From the NCBI RefSeq assembly GCF_004010195.1, contig NC_057719.1:888832-939221 (forward strand): a stretch of 50,390 nucleotides of DNA, in the 5' to 3' direction. The stretch comes from Chiloscyllium plagiosum. Its lineage: Eukaryota. Positions 9,317-49,570 of this stretch are shown here, one piece after another (positions within the stretch are counted from its first letter, which is position 1; each line of letters begins with the position of its first letter). The position numbers and the translations under genes were made by a program. The notes under the pieces were generated by a model. The model was not told the DNA's origin. It did not search any database and saw only the letters and a program-made list of their open reading frames with translations.

Positions 9317-9586
9317 GTTTGGAGGTGGCGGAAATGATGGCGGATGATACACTGTATATGGAGGTTGGTGGGGTGGTAGGTGAGGACCAGAGGAGTTCTG
9401 TCCTGGTGGCGGTTGGAGGGGCGGGGTTCAAGGGCAGAGGAACGGGAAGTGGAGGAGATGCGGTGGAGGGCTTATGCCTGAAACATCGATTCTCCTGCTC
9501 CTTGGATGCTACCTGACCTGCTGCGCTTTTCCAGCAACACATTTTCAGCTCTGATCTCCAGCATCTGCAGTCCTCACTTTCTCCCC
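9317..9586. mobile_element. Penelope-like ORF fragment (minus, ~9317-9468) joined to an oppositely oriented family-B terminal repeat (~9469-9586)
   Basis: Minus strand reads PLVLTYHPTNLHIQCIIRHHFRHLQ, recalled as a Penelope pre-GIY-YIG region; followed by gcctgaaacatcgattctcctgctcc. Confidence 0.75.
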
Positions 9587-10074: not shown

Positions 10075-10217
10075 AAGCAAAATCTGAAGATCTGGAAGGG
10101 GAAACAGAAATTGTTGGATAAGCTCAGCAGGTCTGGCAGCATCTGTGGAGAGAAACAAAGTTAACATTTCAATGTCAATATTAAAGTGAAGAAGAAGGAC
10201 TGGTCTCGAAACGTTAA

Positions 10218-10252
<35 letters not shown>

Positions 10253-10292
10253 CAGATACTGCCAGACCTGCAGAGTTTCTGCAGCAACTTTG
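10075..10292. mobile_element. Older inverted-repeat element related to the Penelope terminal-repeat families, with a (TC)n tract
   Basis: caggtctggcagcatctgtggagaga is the inverted counterpart of tctccacagatactgccagacctg; degenerate tgaagaag...cgaaacgtta motif. Confidence 0.6.
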
Positions 10293-16815: not shown

Positions 16816-17117
16816 CTGTCGGGGGTGGGGGGCAGACAGTAATGGTGTCACATCAAAGGGCAGCACCCACACAGCCGTCTCTGCCCACACCCTCCCTCCC
16901 CACCACGCCCCTTCGCCCACACTGCTACAACTCCTCTCCCAAACAGGAAACTCACCAACAACAACACCTTGAACATGACATGAGAGACGGCACCAGTCCA
17001 CAGGGAGCAGAGACAGGGCATCACACTCAGGACAATGGGCAGGGAAAGGCAGGAGGGAGTTCCCCCTCCCAAAGGGAAAGGGTCTTCACAGGAGCCCTCC
17101 ATCAGGGTCAACAATCT

Positions 17118-17725
17118 GTATCCCAGTGAGAGTCAGCCCCTTCGGGAGAGAGAGGGGGACCCCATACCCCAGTGAGAGTCAGCCCCTTCAGGAGAGGGAG
17201 GGGGACCCCATACCCCATTGAGGGTCAGCCCCTTCAGGAGAGGGAGGGGGACCCCGTACCCCAGTGAGAGTCAGCCCCTTCAGGAGAGGGCGGGGGACCC
17301 TATCCCCCAGTGAGGGTCAGCCCCTTCAGGAGAGGGAGGGGGACCCCGTACCCCAGTGAGAGTCAGCCCCCCCGTACCCCAGTGAAGGGCAGCCCCTTCA
17401 GGAGAGGGAGGGAGACCCCGTACCCCAGTGAGGGGCAGCCCCTTCAGGAGAGGGAGGGAGACCCCGTATTCCAGTGAGGGTCAGCCCCTTCAGGAGAGGG
17501 AGGGGGACCCCGTACCCCAGTGAGAGTCAGCCCCTTCAGGAGAGGGAGGGAGACCCTGTACCCCAGTGAGAGTCAGCCCCTTCAGGAGAGGGAGGGGGAC
17601 CCTATCCCCAGTGAGGGTCAGCCCCTTCAGGAGAGGGAGGGGGACCCCTTACCCCATTGAGAGTCAGCCCCTTCAGGAGAGGGAAGGGGACCCCGTACCC
17701 CAGTGAGAGTCAGCCCCTTCACGAG
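17118..17725. repeat. GC-rich minisatellite, ~46-bp unit (ccccagtgagagtcagccccttcaggagagggagggggaccccgta), ~13 copies
   Basis: Direct reading; lies in intron D-E. Confidence 0.97.
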
Positions 17726-17880
17726 AGGTGAATTCCTGCAGTGCATCTTGTAGATGGTACACACTGCTGGTACCAAGTGTGGAGGGAGTGGATGTTTGTG
17801 GATGTGGTGCCGATCAGGAGGGCACTGAGGAGAAGCAAATAGTGACTAATTTGGAATGTTTCGGGCTCTCCGATGATTAC

Positions 17881-21259: not shown

Positions 21260-21455
21260 TGGTAAAAATCACACCACACCAGGTTATAGTCCAACAGGTT
21301 TATTTGGAAGCACTAGCTTTCGGAGCACTGCTCCTTCATCAGGTGGTGGTGGGCTCTGAAGGCTAGTGCTTCCAATTCGACCTGTTGGACTATAACCTGG
21401 TGTTGTGTGATTTTTTAGCTTTGTCCACCCCAGTCCTACACCGGCCCCTCCGAAT
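21260..21455. mobile_element. Family-A short inverted-repeat element (Penelope-terminal-repeat-like) with ~12-bp target-site duplication
   Basis: Arms caccaggttatagtccaacagg / cctgttggactataacctggtg; TSD caaccctggcaa (21248-21259) / caactctggcaa (21456-21467). Confidence 0.85.
21311..21345 (-). ncRNA. Minimal type I hammerhead ribozyme motif (family A)
   Basis: CAC-CUGAUGA-A-GGAGC(AGU)GCUCC-GAA-AGCU-A-GUG: intact core, 5-bp helix II, palindromic AGCU, CAC/GUG helix I. Confidence 0.8.
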
Positions 21456-21664
21456 CAACTCTGGCAACAGCCTTGTAAATCTTCTCTGAACCCTCTCAAG
21501 TTTCACAAATTCTTTCCGATAGGAGGGAGACCAGAATTGCATGTAGTATTCCAAAACTGGCCTAGCCAACGTCTTGTACAGCCACAACATGACCTCCCAA
21601 CTCCTATACTCAATACACCAACCAATGAATTAACCACTTTCTTCACTATCCTATCTACCTGTGA

Positions 21665-23520: not shown

Positions 23521-23587
23521 TCATCTGCTCGCACATAGATGTACTCACGTTACCAACTCCACCTGCACCACACTCATATCCAAACCA

Positions 23588-24050
23588 GTGCTGCCCCTGT
23601 CCTGGGACTGTTTGATAGAGGACAGTGTAGAGGGAGCTTTACTCCATATTCAATCCCGTGCTGTCCCTGTCCTGGGCATGTTTGATGGGGGACAATGTAG
23701 AGGAAGCTTTATTCTGTATCTAACCCCATGCTGTCCCTGTCCTGGGAGTGTTTGATGGGGGGACAGTGTAGAGGGACCTTTACTCTGTATCTAACCCTGT
23801 GCTGTCCCTGTCCTGGGAGTGTTTGATAGAGGGACAGTGTAGAGGGAGCTGTACTCTGTATTTAACCCTGTGCTGTCACTGTCCTGGGAGTGTTTGATGG
23901 GGACAATGCAGAGGGAGCTTTACTCTGTATCTAACCCTGTGTTGTCCCTGTCCTGGGAGTGTTTGATAGAGGGACAGTGTAAAGGGAGCTTTACTCTGTA
24001 TTTAACCCTGTGCTGTCCCCGTCCTGGGAGTTTTCGATGGGGACAGAGTG
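23588..24050. repeat. ~69-70-bp tandem repeat, ~6.5 copies (tgctgtccctgtcctgggagtgtttgatggggacagtgtagagggagctttactctgtatctaaccc)
   Basis: Direct reading. Confidence 0.95.
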
Positions 24051-25319
24051 GGGTCTCCTGATTGCGGGGCGAGTGTGGCTTCAGTGGTGAAGAGATGGTG
24101 AGTCCTAAGTTGGTGGGTCTGGAGCAGACGGTGGCGAGGGGAGGGGAGTCCTCCTTGAGTCTTGGTTCTGTCATGGACTTGGTTGAAAAGAATTCTGAAG
24201 TTTTCATTTCTTTATTTCCTAATTTATTCCTACGATCAGTAAATGCTGGACTTCTTATTGCTTTATTTTCCTAACTTTTATCCCCAAAGAATTTGTTCTT
24301 TAGAATCTGTTCCTAGGGACCTTTGTACCTAAGATGGTGCAGTATTGTAAAGTTTTGACTGTATCTATTTGACAAAAAAATCTAATTCTAACCAGACAGT
24401 ATAGAGAGAGCTTCGTTTTCCATTTAAAAGAGTAGAAGAGTACAATTTTAATGAAATTGGCCCAATAATGATTTGTGTTTAGAGTTGAGTAGTGAATAAT
24501 CTCTGAGAATTCAGGCCAGAAGAAATGAGAAACAACTTGGAAAATGAGAATTGCTCTGGATTTCTGGGGTAATGGTGCCCCCTGGTGTTGAAAGTGGGAG
24601 GCAAAATTGTTCAAAATTCATTCAATTTCCTCTCGATCAATGAGCACCGGTCTCTCAAATCTGGGTTTCCCTCCGGCCAACAAAAGCTTTGCAAGATCTG
24701 GCCATCCAGAATGACCAGTGGATCTTGAACTGGAAGCCCACGCAGTGGATCCCCAGCAGCCGATTGCAAACTGGGATCCCAGGAAACAGAATGGATTCGA
24801 GGTGATTTGTGATCCTGATGTCTCACTCGGGTGACATTGCGCACCTTCTGGTTGGTTTGATCTGAGGAGGTTAATCCCACAAACGTGGCAGGATTTCATC
24901 GGCTGCATTGGGGTCGGCTGTCACCCTGGGCTTGGTGGGACTCATTTCTCTGAGTGGCAGAGAGCGAGAGGGTCTGAATCTCACGGCCTTGACAGCTCAA
25001 CGTTACTGGTGGGCCGCTGCTACACCCATTCAAACAGAGCTGCCATGGGAAAGGGCAGGTTCTGATAATGAACCATTTCACCCAGTGACTGGGCTGTGCT
25101 CCTGGTCCAGCAGGCTGGATCACTCTCACATCTCATCATTACCCTCTTCCCCCTTGGTCTCAGGGTGTGCGCTGTGCGGCTCCCAGCTGCTGGGAGGGAG
25201 CTCTGTACAGACTCCCAGTCAGGGCACACACACTACAGACAGGGAGTCAGATAGAGTCCCAACATCAGCTTTGGGAAGAGCCACACCCAGATTTGGAATT
25301 TATGCTGCAAGGAGAACTA

Positions 25320-25450
25320 TAACGGCAGGAATAGCAACAGGAATGGGAGCAGGAATGGGAACAGGAACAGGAGCAAGAATGGGAGGAGGATTGGGAATAG
25401 GGATAGGAGCAGGAATGGGAACAGGAATGGGAGCAGGAATACAAAACAGA
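25320..25450. repeat. Purine-rich hexamer repeat (GGAATG/GGAACA/GGAGCA)
   Basis: Direct reading. Confidence 0.9.
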
Positions 25451-25459
25451 GTCTTGGGA

Positions 25460-26690
25460 TAAGGAGGGAGCATTTTCAGGATGGGAACCTGTAACTAGTG
25501 GAGCGTCACATGGGTCAGTGCTGTAATTATTTCCATTAATGCCTTGGATGAGGAAAGTGAGTGTGCTATAGCCAAGTTTGGGAATGACACAAAAGTAGTT
25601 GGGAAGGCAATTGGTGAAGATAATACAGAGAGTCTGCAGAGGGATACAGACAGGTTAATGGAGGGGGAAAAAACCTCACATGTGGAATCTAATGTGGGGA
25701 AATGTGAAATTACACACTTTGGCAGTGACACAAAAGTAGTTGGGAAGGCAATTGGTGAAGATAATACAGAGAGTCTGCAGAGGGATACAGACAGGTTAAT
25801 GGAGGGGGAAAAACCTCACAAGTGGAATCTAATGTGGGGAAATGTGAAATTACACACTTTGGCAGGAAGAATAGAGGAGCTGAATATTGTTTAAATGGAA
25901 AAAGTCTGCAGAAAACTGCAGCAGCGAGAGATTTGGGAATCTTGGTGCATTAATCACAAAAACACCAGCAACCAAGTTCAGTGGGTGATAGGGAAGGCAA
26001 ATGGAATGTTGGCCTTTATTTCAGAGAGAATGGAAAATAAAAATAGCAAAGTTTTGCTTATACTGTACAAGGCTCAGGTCAGAGCACAGCTGGAATACTG
26101 CGAACAGTATGGGCCCTGTATCTAAGGAAAGATAGACTCACATTGGAGGCAATCCAGAGAAGGGTCCCTAGGCTGTTACTGGTACAGAGGGATATAGTTT
26201 TTAATTCCCATATCACTGGGTAGTCCAGCGTTTATTGTCCATCCTTAGTTGCCCTGAGGAGACAGAGGTTGAGGAGGTTGGGGCCTGTACTCACTGCAGT
26301 TTAGAAGAATGAGTGGTGACCTTACTGAAACAAACTGACAAGATTCTTAGGGGACGTGACAGGGGAGATGTGGAGAGGATGTCTCCCCTTGTGGGGGAGA
26401 GTCTAGGACCAGAGGGTATCATCTCAGAATAGGGGGTCACACATCTCATATGGAGAGGAGGAAGAATTTCTCCTCTCTGAGGGGAGTGAATCTGTGGAAT
26501 TCTTTCCCACAGTGAGCCATCGAGGCTGGGGCATTCAGGATATTCAAGGCTGAGAGAGACGGATTTTTAATCAGTAATAGGATCAAGGGTTAAGGGGGAA
26601 AGGCAGGAAAGTGGAGTTGAGGATGATCAGATCATGGTGGAGCAGACTCGATGGGCTGAATGGCCTACTGCTGCTCCTTTGTGTTATGAT
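25460..26690 (+). mobile_element. CR1 RT-to-tail fragment with ~140-bp tandem duplication (~25585-25865)
   Basis: IAKFGNDTKV, NVGKCEITHFG, LYKAQVRAQLEYC; tail gatgggctgaatggcctact. Confidence 0.88.
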
Positions 26691-29465: not shown

Positions 29466-30014
29466 CACCAGTGCCAATTTGGAGATGTGTAGCATGGCAG
29501 ACTTGATTAGGGAGCTAAAGGTGAAGGAACCTCTAGGGGGCAGTGACCATAATATGATAGACTCCACTCTGCAGTTTGAGAGGGAGAAGCTGGAATCCGA
29601 TGTAACATTATTATTACTGAGTAAGGGAACTACAATGGCATGAGGGAGGAGCTGGCCAGGGTTGATTGGAAGGGGAGCCGAGCAGGAAAGATGGTGGAGC
29701 AGCAATGGCAGGAGTTTCTGGGGATAAATCGGGAGGCACAACAGAAATTTGTCCTAAGGAAGGTTTGGAGGGATATGGGCCAGGAGCAGGCAAATGCGGC
29801 TAGTTTAGTTTGGGAACGTGGTCAGCACGGTCTGGTTGGACCAAAGGGTCTGTTTCTGTGCTGTGTGACTTTCTGACTCCATCTTTCTTGTGAACCTCCT
29901 CTGGACTCACTCCAACACCAACACATCCTTCCTTAGATATGGGACCTAAAACTGCTCACAATATTCCAAATGTGGTCTAACTAGAGCCTTATACAGCCTC
30001 AGCAGTGTATAGAC

Positions 30015-30315
30015 ACATAGAATCCCTATGGTGTGGAAGCAGACACTCAGCCCATCAAGTCCACGCTGACCCTCTGAGCACCGTCCCATCTGGCTATCCT
30101 ATTCCAATAGCCGTGCATTTCTCCATGGCTAATCCACCCAGCCTGCACATTTCTGGGTACTATGGGCAATTTCCCGTGGCCAACCTGCACATCTTTGGAC
30201 TGTGGGAGGAAACCGGAGCACCCAGAGGAAGCCCAGACAGTCACCCAAGGCTGGAACCAAACCCAGGTCCCTAATGCTGTGAGGCATCAGTGCTAAGCAT
30301 TGAGCCACCATGCCA
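30015..30315 (-). mobile_element. HE1-related SINE variant
   Basis: ctgcacatctttggactgtgggaggaaaccggagcacc core. Confidence 0.85.
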
Positions 30316-30928
30316 TTCCTCTGCAATATCTGCTGCTCTTGTACTCTGGTCCTCTTGAAATGACTTGTAAATAACCCAGGGATGAAGGCCTTGTCATATG
30401 AGGGGTGGTTGAGGATCCTGGGTCTGTACTCGATGGAGTTCAGAAGGATGAGGGGTGTCTGATTGAAATGTACAGAATACTGAGAGGCCTGGATAGAGTG
30501 GACATGGAGAAGATGTTTCCACTGATGGGAGAGACTGGGAGCCGAGGGCACAGCCTCAGGGTGAAGGGACAACCCTTTGGAACTGAGAGCAAGAGGAATT
30601 TCTTCCGTCAGAGGGTGGGGAATCAGTGGAACTCAGAGGGCTGTGGAGACCAAGTCATTGAGTGTATTTAAGACAGAGGTAGGTCGGTTCCTGATTGGTA
30701 AGGGTGTCAAGAGTTACAGGGAGAAGGCAGGAGAATGGGTTGCAGAAACATATCACGCCATGATCGGATGGTGGGGCAGAGTCAATGGGCAGAATAGCCT
30801 AATTCTGTTCCTATACTTTATGATCTCATGTCTTGTCACGCCCCTCAAAAAAGGTTCAGTGAGCTCAGACACAAGTTATCAGTGACTTGAAAGTGGAGTC
30901 GCAGGTAGATAGGATAGCCTTTCATCCA

Positions 30929-31050
30929 CGGCTTTTGCCCGAGACGTCGATTTTCCTGCTCCTCGGATGCTGCCTGACCTGCTGTGCTTTCCCAGCACCA
31001 CTCTGATCTAAACTCTGGTTTCCAGCATCTGCAGTCCTCACTTTTGCCTC
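30929..31050 (+). mobile_element. Family-B Penelope-terminal-repeat fragment
   Basis: ggcttttgcccgagacgtcgattttcctgctcctcggatgctgcc. Confidence 0.8.
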
Positions 31051-31407
31051 AGAGGGATATGGGCCGGGTGCTGGCAGGTGGGACTAGATTGGGTTGGGAT
31101 ATCCGGTCGGCACAGACGAGTTGGACCAAGGGGTCTGTTTCCGTGCTGTACATCTCTATGACTCTGTGACTGTTAGGATCCAAAGCAGGGGACCTAGGGA
31201 ACAGGAACCACTGCCTCTGCCTCACATTCTGTACTTTTCTCACTGTCCGTTCAATCGTTCATGTAAAGGGCTTGATTTGAGGATCACACACTCTCCTGCA
31301 GTTTAATAATATTCTTGTGCCATTTAAAAGTAACCCAAATGCGGTACACGAATTCTGTTAACTTGAAGATCTAGTGTTGGGTTTATGTACAGCTAAACTC
31401 ATTTATA

Positions 31408-31618
31408 GATTAGAGTAAAGAGTGTGGTGCTGGAAAAGCGCAGCTGGTCAGACAGCGTCTGAGGAGCAGGAGAATCAACGTTTCGGGCAAAAGCCCTTCA
31501 TCAGGAATGTCTGATTTTGCCCGAAATGTGATTTTCTTGCTCCTTGGATGCTGCTGTGCTTATCCAACACCACAATGTCAAACCTGATCTCCAGCATCTG
31601 CAGTCCTCACTTTCACCT
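31408..31618. mobile_element. Family-B inverted-repeat element with flanking ctcatttataga duplication
   Basis: Minus arm ~31411-31507, plus arm ~31511-31617; ctcatttatagatt is present on both sides (~31399 and ~31617). Confidence 0.85.
31473..31508 (-). ncRNA. Minimal hammerhead ribozyme motif (family B)
   Basis: AUUC-CUGAUGA-A-GGGC(UUUU)GCCC-GAA-ACGU-U-GAUU. Confidence 0.75.
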
Positions 31619-32012
31619 CATTTATAGATTGTGTACAATATGCATACACAGCCTGTTCCTGGAGGATGACAGTGCAGAGAGCCTGGGGCCTGTGAGTTAC
31701 TATTATGTTGAATCCTTAAAGGGACATTGCACCAAAGGTGGGTGCAGGATGACACCTGGAAATGGAGCTAAATCACAAAATGAGCTGAGGGAACACAGGA
31801 GAAGGAGTCTCAGACTGAAGGTATGTTTTATTCCTGTGCTGATTTGGCAATCGATCAGTGCAGATGGCTAAAGTGACATCTCAAGCCATGGATCCAATCT
31901 GTATACGAGCTGACCTCATTTCTGGGGCTACATTGTAGTACCCCCATTCTGCCCCAAACTCTCTCATATGGAATGATGTGGAGTCCTGCCCTGTGGGTGG
32001 AGGGACACATAC

Positions 32013-32064
32013 CTTTGAAAGACCTGGGTTCTTTGTAACGCTTGACGTTGAACCATCAATTCTC
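32013..32064 (-). CDS. CCDC170-like gene, exon C (52 nt; (R)RIDGSTSSVTKNPGLSK)
   Basis: tctctctgtctcttcacag|GAGAATT...TCAAAG|gtatgt. The first base completes the AG codon from exon B; ends in phase 0. Confidence 0.8.
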
Positions 32065-32309
32065 CTGTGAAGAGACAGAGAGAACATGAATGAGGTGGAG
32101 AGAGCTGGAGAAGGATGTATCAGTGGCGCTATCAGTGTAGGCTCTCCCACCACTCAGCCTCCTCCCTCCAATGCACCAATCTTTTCTTTCTCAGAACACC
32201 AGGTTAAAGGTCACGGACCTGAAATGTTAACTCTGTTTCTTGCTCCCCAAATCCTGTCAGACCTGCTGAGCATTTCCAGCATTTTCTGTTTTTCCTTCTT
32301 TCCTCGTCA

Positions 32310-32975
32310 ATCTTCCCTCCATCATAAGGTCAGAGGTGGGAGTGTTCACTGATGATTGCACAATGTTCAGCACGATTCATGACTCCTCAGGTACTGAAGC
32401 AGTCCATGTTCAAATGCAACAAAATCTGGACAATATCCAGGCTTGGGCTGACAAGTGGCAAGTAACATTTGTACCACACAAATGCCAAATAGTGACCATT
32501 TCAACAAGAGACAATCTAATGGCACAGTGGCTCAGTGGTTAACACTGCTGCCTTGCGGCACCAGGGACCCAGGTTGGATTCCAGCCTTGGGAAACTGTCT
32601 ATCTGGAGTTTGCACACTCTCCCCGTATCTGCGTGGGTTTCCTCCGGGTGCTCTGGTTTCCTCCCATATTCCAAAAATGTGCAGGTTAAGGTGGATTGCC
32701 CATGCTAAATTACCCATAGTGTTAGATGCGTTAGTCGGAGGGAAAATGGGTCTGGGTGGGTTACTGTTCGGAGGGTTGGTGGGAACTTGCTGGGCTGAAG
32801 GGCCTGTTTCCACACTGTAGAGAATCTATTCTAACCATCGCCCTTTGACCTTCAATGGCGCTATTATCACTGAATCCCCCGCTATCATAATCTGGGGTTT
32901 ACTATTAAACAGAAGCTCAACAGGACCAGCCGTATCCAGGACTATATGAACAGGTCAGAGGCTGGGAATCATATG
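32310..32975 (+). mobile_element. Second-LINE RT fragment interrupted by an HE1-type SINE (~32519-32830, +)
   Basis: VFTDDCTMFSTI...NIQAWADKWQVTF; the SINE is flanked by tctaa-like ends. Confidence 0.88.
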
Positions 32976-33235
32976 GTGAGTGAGCTTGGCCAGTGTCTAG
33001 GAGCTGAGGCTGGGTGAGCTGTGCACTTGCACAAAGACAGATGCATGATCTCAGTGAGGATGAGCATGGAACCTCAGATGCACACATCAGGGGCTACGAT
33101 CCCAGAAACCACAGCCTCTAACTGGCAGACAACTGGTGGCAGGAAGGGGTTTTGCTGCCTCATTGGGGGAGGAGGTTGGGGGTGGGGTGGGGTGGGGGGT
33201 TATATATTTGGACTTGAGCTTGCTCCAGTTCTCAC

Positions 33236-33312
33236 CTCAGTCGGGTCAGAGTCCTGATAACCTCATCCTTCTTCTCCAGTTCCTCATGGTAGATCTTCAG
33301 TTGCTCCTCTAG
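33236..33312 (-). CDS. CCDC170-like gene, exon B (77 nt; LEEQLKIYHEELEKKDEVIRTLTRL+AG), coiled-coil
   Basis: tttattccattcacag|CTAGAG...CTGAG|gtgaga. Open frame with heptad-like composition; the phase-2 end fits the next exon. Confidence 0.85.
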
Positions 33313-33514
33313 CTGTGAATGGAATAAAGATAAATTCAGCTGCTGGTCTGGTGTGTCGTACAACACCCGGGATCTCCCCATGTACCATCTCCTCACAGCC
33401 TGAGGTCTTCCTAGGTCACTCGCAGTGTGTCACTAAACAAGGAATTTTGAAGAGGTTAATGGACACGCAGAAGCTTTGCTCATTGTGTGATGGGGAGGTA
33501 CTGTTAGCACTTAC

Positions 33515-38800: not shown

Positions 38801-40050
38801 CCCCTCTGGTTCAGGTGAAGACCATCCTGTTTGTAGCGGTCCCACCTACCCTACAATGAGCCCTAATTATCCAGGAAACAAAAACTCTCCCTCCTGCGCC
38901 ATCCCTGTAGCCACGTATTCAACTCCTCTCTCTCCCTATTCCTTGTCTCGCTAGCACGTGGCACGGGTAACAAATCAGAGATAACAACTCTGTCTGTCCT
39001 CGCTCTAAGCTTCCATCCTAGCTTCCTGAATTTCTGCCTTAAATCTCCATCTCTCTTCCTACCTATATCATTGGTGCCTATGTGGACCACAACCTGGGGG
39101 CTGCTCCCCCTCCCCCTCAAGGACCCCGTAAACATGATCCAAGACATCACGAACCCTGGCAACTAGGAGGCAACACACCAACCATGAGTCTCGCTCCTTC
39201 TCACAGAACCTGGTATCTGTCCCCCTAACTATGGAGACCCCAAAGACTACTGCTCTGCTCCTCTTCCCCCTTCCCTTCTGAGCAACAGGGACAGGGACAG
39301 ACTCTGTGCCAGAGCCCTGTGCCCCATTGCTTTCCCCTGGTAAGTCATCCGCCACAACAATATCCAAAAAGGTCTACGCCATAGGGCATCCCTGCACTGC
39401 CTGCTGGTTCCCTTTCCGTCCCCTGACTATAGCTGAAAAATGTGTTGCTGGAAAAGCACAGCAGGTCAGGCAGCATCCAAGGAGCAGGAGAATTGATGTT
39501 TCGGGCACTATCCCCTGACTATAACCCATCTACCTTTTTTCCTGTACCTGAGGTTACCTCCCTGTAACTCCTCCCAATAACCCCCTCCGCCTCCCGAATA
39601 ATCCGAAATTCATCCAGCTCCAGCTCCAGTTCCCTAACGCGGTTTCCGAGGAGCTGGAGTTGGGTGCACTTCCCGCAGATGCAGTCAGCAGGGACACTCA
39701 TGGTGACCCTTACCTCCTACAATCTGCAGGAGGAACGTTCAACTGTCCTAACCTCCATTCCCACTGTTCTGAATTCCCAAACAGACTATATTAAAAAAAA
39801 CTAGCAACCTTACCAAATCGGCGTTCTGGACCTTGTTTTTTTTTTGGTTAGGGGAGGAGGATGGGTGGGAGACACTACCTAAGTAGTGTTTCGGGTAAAG
39901 CAACTGGCCAAATATATAACCTCACTTACACAGCTGTCCCATGCCCGCTCCTGTTTAGCGTGCACTCCACCTATACGTGAGGTAAGCTTTTAAACAATTA
40001 TTTTACCTTCCCGGCAGCTCCCTGGTCCTTGCTCTCGCTGCTCCCTCTGC
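35813..40050 (-). mobile_element. Near-full-length, disabled CR1/HER1-type LINE: 5' UTR, ORF1 (Cys motif, leucine zipper, SGNH esterase-like), ORF2 (APE endonuclease + RT), 3' UTR
   Basis: CICGKCTQLQLL..RVRELELELD; VVFGVSIVRG and [47 protein letters not shown]. Many stops and frameshifts. Confidence 0.95.
39432..39510 (-). mobile_element. Family-B insertion in CR1 ORF1 with perfect 13-bp TSD
   Basis: tcccctgactata at 39419-39431 and 39511-39523. Confidence 0.9.
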
Positions 40051-41773: not shown

Positions 41774-41897
41774 GAAGGGCTTTTGCCCGAAACGTCGATT
41801 TTGCTGAAGCTCCTCGGATGCTGCCTGAAATGCTGTGCTCTTCCTGCACCATTGATCCAGAATCTGGTTTCCAGCATCTGCAGTCATTGTTTTTACC
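41774..41897 (+). mobile_element. Family-B fragment inserted inside the Penelope RT
   Basis: gaagggcttttgcccgaaacgtcgatttt...gtcattgtttttacc. Confidence 0.85.
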
Positions 41898-42845: not shown

Positions 42846-42888
42846 CTCACTGATGATGTTGCCTAGTGGTGGTGACGAAACATCTGAA
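42846..42888 (+). ncRNA. Hammerhead-like motif (family C) in the Penelope terminal repeat
   Basis: CUCA-CUGAUGA-U-GUUGCC(UAGUGGU)GGUGAC-GAAACAUC-UGA. Confidence 0.7.
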
Positions 42889-43074
42889 CAGGAACCTTCC
42901 AGCTCAGCGAGCTAACTTACATAGTTACGAGAGAATTAGCTTCCAACAACATTTCAGTGTTTTCTACAATTTACCTTAACCTACCCTGGTCACAAAGGAA
43001 ACAATGTCAGCAGGGAACATCTACATAATGAGAGTACTAATCAAAACATACAGCGAGACCTGGTTTTATCTGAG

Positions 43075-47027: not shown

Positions 47028-47148
47028 GAAGGGCTTTTGCCCGAAACGTCGATTTCGCTGCTCCTTGGATGCTGCCTGAACTGCTGTGCTCTTCCAGCAC
47101 CACGAATCCAGAATCTGGTTTCCAGCATCTGCTGTCATTGTTTTTACC
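47028..47148 (+). mobile_element. Family-B fragment (helix II + GAAACGUC; 5' core missing)
   Basis: gaagggcttttgcccgaaacgtcgatttcgctgctcc. Confidence 0.85.
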
Positions 47149-48649: not shown

Positions 48650-49570
48650 CCATAAGATATAAAGGCAGAATTAAGCTATTCAATCCATTGAATCAATCAG
48701 ATTCCCCTCATCCTGCTAAACCCCATCGAGTACAGACCCAGAGTCCTCAACCACCCCTCATCTGACAAACCCTTCAGCTCTGGGAGCCTTTCTTGTGAAC
48801 CTCTTCTGGGTCCCCTCTAATACCAAAACATCCTTCTTTAGATATGGGACACAAAACTGTTTGCAATATTCCAAATGTAGTCTGACCAGAGCTTTATCCA
48901 GCCTCAGCAGTACATCTCACCCTCTTGAGATGAATGCTAACATTTCATTTGCCTTCCTAACTGCCAACTGAACCTCCATGTTAACTTGAAGACAATCCTG
49001 AACTAGAACTCCCAAGTCCCTTTGTGTTTCAGATAACCGAATGCCTCTAATCTTCCTACCAAAGTGCATAACCTCACAGTTTCCCACATTGTATTCTATC
49101 TGCTAATTGTTTGCCCACTCTCTAGCCTGTCTAAGTCCTACTGCAGCCTCCCTGTTTCCTCAACATTACCTGTCCCCATCTTTACATCATCTGTAAACTT
49201 AGTAACAATGCCCTCAGTTCTTTTGTGCAGATCATTAATGTATAATGTGAGTAACTGTGGTCCCAACACTGATCCCCATGGAGCTCCACTAGCCACGGCT
49301 GACATCCTGAAAAAGACATTGTTATCCCCACTCTCTGCCTTCTGTCAGTCAGCCAATCCTCTATCCATGCTGAAAAATGTGTTGCTGGAAACGCGCAGCA
49401 GGTCAGGCAGCATCCAAGGAGCAGGAGAATCGACGTTTTGGTCATGAGCCCTTCTTCAGGAATCCTCTATCCATGCCAGTACCTTGTCTCAGAACACTAT
49501 GGGCTTTTATCTTATTCAGCAGCCTCCTGTGCAGCACCTTGTTAAAGGCCTTCTGGAAATCCAAATAGGT
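48650..49570 (-). mobile_element. Degenerate CR1, interrupted by a family-B insertion (49371-49460) with perfect 16-bp TSD
   Basis: YLDFQKAFNKVLH; aatcctctatccatgc at 49355-49370 and 49461-49476. Confidence 0.88.

What the first reader, a model, noticed from the sequence alone, without database searches (positions are those of the whole stretch)
31408..31618. Second, sequence-unrelated hammerhead family (B) with the same inverted architecture
Seen: minus-strand CUGAUGA-A-GGGC(UUUU)GCCC-GAA-ACGU-U with a partly deleted mirror copy and a flanking duplication. The family recurs at ~9469, 30929, 39432, 41774, 47028 and 49371. The copy at 9469 abuts a Penelope-like ORF fragment in inverted orientation. 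This copy is also sense to the host intron, ~500 nt downstream of exon C.
Basis: partly seen in the sequence, partly recalled or inferred. Interest (0 to 1): 0.7.

Follow-up and report, generated by a model that had tools for sequence, protein, structure and literature searches.

The report
Head-to-head Penelope stub in shark intron
This 205-base near-palindrome is one old stub of a very abundant Penelope-type jumping gene, carrying a small hammerhead ribozyme motif that such elements are known to carry; it was likely written by two copying starts, one from each cut DNA strand, and likely does nothing in the host intron.

Summary
Real, but a known kind. The insert (31412-31616) has two oppositely oriented copies of a Penelope-like element (PLE) 3' end, a 14-bp target-site duplication (TSD), a minimal hammerhead core on the minus strand, and a 29-nt tail on one arm only. 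The mirror arm's core is broken. The parent was found: genomic copies join this end to RT and GIY-YIG domains through a Neptune-type cysteine linker. The family has about 180 arms per Mb. In 1.58 Mb of the genome, 49 of 53 close head-to-head pairs have exactly one tail, 38 of 53 have TSDs (mode 14), and either arm can be longer. This favours priming from both target nicks over fold-back. Arm 5' ends pile up just before the core (82 of 273), not at the cut site (3 of 273), about 30 nt after a TATA-like motif: a likely RNA start, untested. The sense-strand copy is predicted to be locked in a hairpin. The architecture is published, and this scan has already reported the same two mechanistic readings many times on other shark DNA.

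The parts
31398..31411 (+). Left target-site duplication, 14 bp; its last 3 bases also fit the tail-less arm's end
31412..31508 (-). Tail-less arm: PLE 3' end (pLTR), beginning 4-5 nt before the hammerhead core; subfamily B2
31477..31504 (-). Minimal type I hammerhead core: CUGAUGA, extra A, 4-bp stem II with UUUU loop, GAAA, palindromic ACGU, H17 = U. Predicted cut between 31477 and 31476; weak stem I from 31505-31508 with 31473-31476
   Evidence: cut site by hammerhead numbering (inferred)
31509..31617 (+). Junction plus tailed arm; hammerhead core destroyed by deletions
31589..31617 (+). 29-nt tail, present on this arm only; in tandem parent copies the ORF-bearing body follows it directly
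31617..31630 (+). Right target-site duplication; first C shared with the tail end
9317..9471 (-). Inverted PLE ORF fragment (RT thumb to linker), the long arm of the 9467 insertion; it runs into an 877-N gap, about the distance to the parent's 3' end; 5-nt overlap with the short arm
9467..9584 (+). Short tailed B1 arm, starting just before stem II (no CUGANGA)
30930..31048 (+). Solo tailed B3 arm, no core; antisense in the same intron
39431..39507 (-). Solo tail-less B1 arm, no core, with an 11-nt flanking repeat
41774..41897 (+). Solo tailed B4 arm, starting inside the core
47028..47148 (+). Solo tailed B4 arm, starting inside the core
49369..49463 (-). Solo tail-less B1 arm starting at -4; core broken; 16-nt flanking repeat
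32013..32064 (-).

Best explanation
The element is a single, decayed insertion of the hammerhead-bearing 3' end of an autonomous Neptune-type Penelope-like retrotransposon, likely made when both target nicks primed reverse transcription. Shown: parent with RT, cysteine linker and GIY-YIG; TSDs near 14 bp; head-to-head arms; one tail per pair; either arm longer; the tail end is internal to the tandem element. Inferred step 1: the endonuclease nicks the two strands about 14 nt apart. Inferred step 2: each 3'-OH primes on sense RNA at one of two internal start sites about 30 nt apart (tail end, tail start). Inferred step 3: both cDNAs often stop 0-8 nt before the hammerhead core, probably the RNA's 5' end (TATA-like motif at -34 to -36, initiator-like TCATTCC; about even odds). 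Inferred step 4: the cDNA ends anneal through short self-complementary patches and are repaired; later mutation destroyed one core. The ribozyme would act only as a dimer or with protein help, in the parent's tandem transcript, and is likely inert in this host pre-mRNA.
For: Parent: RVT_1 E 5.8e-9 and GIY-YIG E 2.8e-4 (just under its cutoff) in copies that end in B. In 7 of 29 N-terminal loci, B lies directly upstream of the ORF. Within 30 nt, 51 neighbour pairs are head-to-head and 0 are in other orientations. One tail in 49 of 53 close pairs (expected 0.5; P 4e-11). TSD in 38 of 53 against 5 of 400 control pairings; mode 14. The tail-less arm reaches further 5' in 33 pairs, the tailed arm in 10, level in 6. 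In 29 loci picked by the ORF fragment, the ORF-bearing arm is tail-less with a tailed partner in 6 and tailed with a tail-less partner in 3. TSD-bounded solo arms of both kinds occur, some with 13-32-nt partner stubs. The base after the tail is T in 64 of 86, as in the template. 5' ends: 82 of 273 at -8 to 0, 3 at the cut site; 23 of 30 TSD-bounded solos at -8 to 0. Unrelated family A repeats the pattern: 20 close head-to-head pairs against 1 other, and 17 of 20 with one tail. In vitro, the Anolis PLE nicks and extends both strands and starts internally at two sites (PMC11167929).
Against: The same paper saw no strand difference in start-site use, so it does not explain why one end is tailed and the other is not. 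The tail-less arm is longer three times as often as the tailed one, and central deletions after insertion blur the junctions. Only 1 of 7 upstream pLTRs in tandem copies begins near the proposed RNA start; 3 extend far upstream and 3 begin further down. A subfamily test of the promoter-distance idea was inconclusive (5 informative B4 arms). RNA reads showed no pile-up of molecule starts (2% of one poly(A) single-cell run, unsuited to this). Arms within a pair are more alike than random arms (6.2% against 11.2%), which fits copy-back as well.
Confidence: 0.68

Rival explanations
1. Same PLE, but the mirror arm comes from self-priming: a fold-back on the first cDNA or on an antisense RNA, as proposed in PMC3846280.
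For: Junctions often overlap at palindromic patches (gaps of -1 to -18 in many pairs). Arms within a pair are more similar than random arms, and 31 of 34 classifiable pairs share a subfamily. The tail-less arm is longer in 33 of 49.
Against: Fold-back nests one arm in the other in one fixed direction. Both directions occur, also at kilobase scale (6 against 3). A tail cannot be copied from a tail-less arm. Solo arms of both kinds carry TSDs.
Confidence: 0.2
2. The 5' pile-up just before the core is an RT stall or template switch at the folded or protein-bound ribozyme region, not the RNA's capped start. This changes only step 3.
For: Ends track the core in two unrelated families. Most tandem 5' pLTRs do not start there. 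A shoulder of ends runs from +1 to +12 (56 of 273).
Against: Both families have a TATA-like motif about 30 nt upstream. Few ends fall just upstream (14 of 273 in -30 to -9). RT would already have unwound stem I by then (inference).
Confidence: 0.3
3. A non-autonomous hairpin element or retrozyme that moves as a fixed 200-nt unit.
For: Many copies of similar size, about 200 nt.
Against: Centres differ from copy to copy, sizes run continuously up to kilobases of ORF, and no same-strand tandem monomers lie within 30 nt (0). Retrozymes are defined as tandem repeats (bioRxiv 2026.07.22.740005).
Confidence: 0.05
4. A co-opted intronic ribozyme that cuts the host pre-mRNA.
For: The intact core is sense in an intron; the family A core in the same intron is also sense.
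Against: About 20% diverged from its closest relatives. Weak stem I, no stem III loop, and predicted full pairing with the mirror arm. Single minimal PLE hammerheads showed no cleavage in vitro (PMC4209133). With about 49 intact B cores per Mb (78 in 1.585 Mb), sense intronic copies are expected by chance.
Confidence: 0.04

Closest known systems
EN+ PLE insertions with inverted pLTR, one-sided 30-40-bp tail and TSD (Pen2a_Av, PMC3846280; general scheme in PMC8557442; passages read)
   Same: Head-to-head inverted ends, tail on one side, TSD, partial tandems, TATA/Inr-like motif in the pLTR
   Different: Both arms are cut down to about 100 nt; TSD about 14 bp rather than 8-10; very high copy number allows counts
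Minimal type I hammerheads of metazoan PLEs (Cervera and De la Pena 2014, PMC4209133; parts 1-2 of 4 read)
   Same: Extra base before stem II, G10.1-C11.1 pair, palindromic 15.2-16.2 with no loop 3, short stem I; opposite-strand pairs were noted in Schistosoma
   Different: Stem II only 4 bp; stem I is 2 bp plus U-U and A-U in most subfamilies (a perfect 4 bp in one); sharks are not named in the parts I read (supplements not seen)
PAc, the Poseidon element of Anolis (Frangieh et al. 2024, PMC11167929; parts 1-2 of 4 read)
   Same: Two internal RT start sites bounding the tail, downstream of the hammerhead at the pLTR-ORF junction; copies do not begin at the ribozyme cut
   Different: PAc's start codon lies in the core, whereas here the ORF begins after the tail and there is a Neptune-type linker; that paper does not treat the one-tail-per-pair rule in the parts read
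L1 twin priming (recalled, no call)
   Same: Second-strand nick primes an inverted cDNA
   Different: L1 inversions copy non-overlapping parts of one RNA; here both arms contain the same 3' end

Membership tests
EN+ Penelope-like element | RT domain followed by C-terminal GIY-YIG endonuclease in the parent | tested here: met
   RVT_1 E 5.8e-9 (L034); GIY-YIG E 2.8e-4, 21.6 bits against cutoff 22.6, with LYIGETG motif (L047, L052)
EN+ Penelope-like element | pLTR formed by partial tandems; inverted truncated copy; 30-40-nt one-sided tail; TSD | tested here: met
   7 of 29 tandem junctions; 49 of 53 pairs with one tail, TSD 38 of 53; tail 29-36 nt
Neptune clade | CX2-5CXXC linker between RT and EN | tested here: met
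   C-x4-C-x2-C in L052 and other parent copies; criterion from PMC8557442; Nematis also has such a linker
Neptune clade | RT phylogeny groups with Neptune | not tested
   No reference PLE proteins were at hand
Minimal type I hammerhead | CUGANGA, GAAA, NUH, G10.1-C11.1, palindromic 15.2-16.2 | tested here: met
   variation confined to N7 and loop II; C-G in B against G-C in family A at 15.2/16.2
Minimal type I hammerhead | Stem I of about 4-5 bp | tested here: inconclusive
   Pairs 1, 2 and 4 form (C-G 41, U-A 46, A-U 42 of 51); pair 3 is U-U in 32 and U-A in 8
Minimal type I hammerhead | Self-cleavage | not testable with these tools
   No excess of genomic 5' ends at the cut site (8 of 273 in +26 to +30, at background level)
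Non-LTR retrozyme | Tandem direct repeats, each with a hammerhead | tested here: not met
   0 same-strand neighbours within 30 nt against 51 head-to-head

The most novel reading that the evidence does not exclude
The stubs record the PLE integration reaction: an asymmetric RT-endonuclease dimer nicks 14 nt apart and assigns one internal start site to each nick (hence exactly one tail), and both cDNAs run off the capped start of an uncut RNA that begins at the ribozyme's first stem. Hundreds of thousands of copies would map the transcription start and show that the hammerhead is normally uncut in the template.
Probability: 0.35. Interest if true: 0.6.

Novelty: new member of a known kind. Interest (0 to 1): 0.25.

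Why it matters
As a locus it does not matter: it is one of an estimated several hundred thousand stubs (182 arms per Mb in 1.585 Mb, extrapolated to 3.56 Gb; the sample was chosen arbitrarily). As a family it gives counts that bear on an open question, how PLEs make head-to-head inverted ends with a single tail. The counts favour double priming over the published self-priming idea and give precise predictions (14-nt stagger, two start sites, RNA start at about -4) for the existing in vitro PLE assay. It also implies on the order of 10^5 minimal hammerhead cores in one shark genome that Rfam does not detect at gathering score.

Tried and rejected
Rfam at gathering score: no match in the window. 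ESM Atlas search with the 48-aa host exon: no usable hit. Pfam on the host protein: only sub-threshold coiled-coil families. No RNA holder was listed for window 29500-33500, and expression of this locus was not tested with reads. Reads laid on a parent pLTR-ORF junction: run X15 covers B on both strands, depth collapses after the tail, and 5 of the 6 listed joints are opposite-strand (so hairpin copies exist in reads and are not assembly artefacts). No start or end pile-up was listed, 126 loose ends were not shown, and X16 gave no reads; this is no test of the RNA start or of cleavage. Rejected: arms beginning at the ribozyme cut; an intron acceptor at -4 as in D. virilis (no conserved AG there); an ORF starting at the AUG in CUGAUGA (B1 has CUGAAGA, and the B frame stops after about 17 codons by reading the sequence). 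The promoter-distance test by subfamily was inconclusive. Eleven of 299 BLAST arms were dropped as family C, and 15 of 288 were dropped from the 5'-end counts for adjacent Ns. Pairs up to 4 kb apart (75 of 87 with one tail) include chance neighbours and were not relied on. Paper searches: Penelope + shark + Neptune + inverted gave 0; Penelope + twin priming gave 3, none on PLE mechanism by title or abstract start; one search added nothing beyond PMC11167929. These cover open-licence papers only; Repbase, Dfam and subscription papers were not searched.

Full report
Observation. The minus strand at 31504-31477 carries a complete minimal hammerhead core: CUGAUGA, one extra A, a 4-bp stem II with a UUUU loop, GAAA, CGU and U as the cleavage-site base. 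It sits in the left arm of a near-palindrome, 31412-31616, bounded by an exact 14-bp duplication. The right arm is the same sequence on the plus strand with its core destroyed, and it alone carries a 29-nt tail. Only this locus has an intact core, and only this one and 9467 are two-armed. Rfam reports nothing. A strict descriptor finds 81 cores of at least four families in 1.585 Mb and none in a shuffled copy.

Host. Exons predicted on the minus strand match a Chiloscyllium punctatum hypothetical coiled-coil protein at 92-100% over the longer exons, so this is a bamboo-shark-like genome. The protein resembles CCDC170 (recalled, no call). The element lies in the roughly 13.9-kb intron after exon 32064-32013, with the core sense and 509 nt from the donor.

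Parent. The inverted fragment at 9317-9471 matches 40 other places at 93-96% (capped list). In most of the 29 fetched loci a B end follows it on the same strand 0.1-1.2 kb downstream (26 of 29). These copies translate to an RT (Pfam RVT_1, E 5.8e-9), a C-x4-C-x2-C linker and a GIY-YIG domain (E 2.8e-4, just below cutoff). In 7 of 29 loci picked by the ORF's N-terminal part, B lies directly upstream, and the ORF-bearing body follows the tail end at once. B is therefore the pLTR of an autonomous, Neptune-type PLE, and the tail end is an internal position of the tandem element. At least five subfamilies differ in N7, loop II and flanks while keeping stem II. Older subfamilies also have endonuclease remnants upstream.

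Family survey. I took the window, 200 kb around it and 1.4 Mb from arbitrary places on large contigs. This gave 299 arms, 288 after dropping family C. The 3' ends are bimodal, tailed or about 30-40 nt short. Neighbours within 30 nt are head-to-head in 51 cases and in no other orientation. Of 53 close pairs, 49 have exactly one tail and 38 have a TSD (controls 5 of 400; mode 14). The tail-less arm reaches further 5' in 33 pairs, the tailed arm in 10, and 6 are level. Both asymmetries also occur with kilobase arms (6 and 3). Thirty of 114 solo arms have a TSD; they are of both kinds, and some carry tiny partner stubs. The base after the tail is T in 64 of 86, and the target base before it is C in 12 of 19, matching the template. 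Family A, unrelated outside the core, repeats this pattern: 20 close head-to-head pairs against 1 other, 17 with one tail.

5' ends. Relative to the core's first C, 82 of 273 arms start at -8 to 0, 56 at +1 to +12, 14 at -30 to -9 and 50 beyond -60. Only 3 start at the predicted cut (+28). The pile-up is not an alignment artefact: 23 of 30 TSD-bounded solos and 36 of 106 inner ends of close pairs fall there. Long B arms carry a TTATCT-type motif at -34 to -36 in 31 of 38 cases and an initiator-like sequence at -4. Family A has TATAAAT at -40, and 17 of 40 inner ends lie at -10 to +1. An RNA start there is my preferred reading, at about even odds. Against it, only 1 of 7 upstream pLTRs starts there, and the subfamily test was inconclusive.

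Mechanism. Nicks about 14 nt apart leave two 3' ends, and each primes on sense RNA, one at the tail end and one at the tail start. The cDNAs stop, often at the RNA's probable start, and are joined head to head through short complementary patches. The parts and counts are shown; the steps are inferred. Fold-back (PMC3846280, passages) predicts nesting in one direction and is the main rival. The in vitro work on the Anolis element (PMC11167929, parts 1-2 of 4) shows extension of both strands and two internal starts, but no strand asymmetry, so the one-tail rule is unexplained there.

Ribozyme. The motif meets the sequence features of the PLE minimal hammerheads, whose tested monomer did not cleave (PMC4209133, parts 1-2 of 4). 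In the intron RNA the arm is predicted to pair with its mirror (-88.6 kcal/mol). Alone it folds stem II but not the catalytic form (-8.7 for the alternative fold against -5.8). Activity at this locus is unlikely. No assay was possible.

Literature seen. PMC8557442, PMC3846280 and PMC2377424 as passages. bioRxiv 2026.07.22.740005 as part 1 of 5 and passages; it sampled one chondrichthyan, and its supplements are closed. The supplements of PMC4209133 were not opened and may list shark motifs. Searches found no paper on double priming in PLEs or on this shark family, within open-licence papers only.

Earlier scan notes. I wrote both mechanistic readings down before seeing that the scan holds 525 notes with these words and several with the RNA-start reading, some in this genome. 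They are repeats, not independent support.

Verdict. A real, ordinary PLE stub; new member of a known kind; interest 0.25.

Noticed in passing
window 21263-21457: Family A two-armed PLE stub with an intact core on the minus strand (CUA triplet, AGCU palindrome), one tail, in the same host intron; its parent has a TATAAAT box 40 nt before the core.
   Followed up: partly
window 32207-32290 and about 10195-10290: Decayed copies of a third hammerhead-PLE family (C) that shares B's downstream sequence.
   Followed up: partly
window 42850-42892: Fourth hammerhead-like family (D) with a longer stem II; relatives with intact cores occur in the genome sample.
   Followed up: no
sample (B161 19805, B136 34215, B181 22589): A few family A arms begin within 1 nt of the predicted ribozyme cut; too few to call an excess.
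   Followed up: partly
L061 minus strand, upstream of the RT: The parent ORF has a low-complexity Pro/Thr-rich repeat region between its N-terminal domain and the RT.
   Followed up: no
L091:1391-1650: An older relative with two tailed arms whose flanks continue the palindrome for about 24 nt, unlike the one-tail rule.
   Followed up: no
genome sample B146 10686 and 32105; 3851 and 24668: Near-identical insertions 21 kb apart, suggesting a local segmental duplication; these count twice in the tallies.
   Followed up: no
window 17026-17792, 23575-24050, 25303-25464: Tandem arrays of 46-, about 71- and 12-nt units inside the host gene's introns.
   Followed up: no
window 33381-13859, minus strand: Host gene fragment, a coiled-coil protein resembling CCDC170 (recalled); at least five exons matched.
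   Followed up: partly
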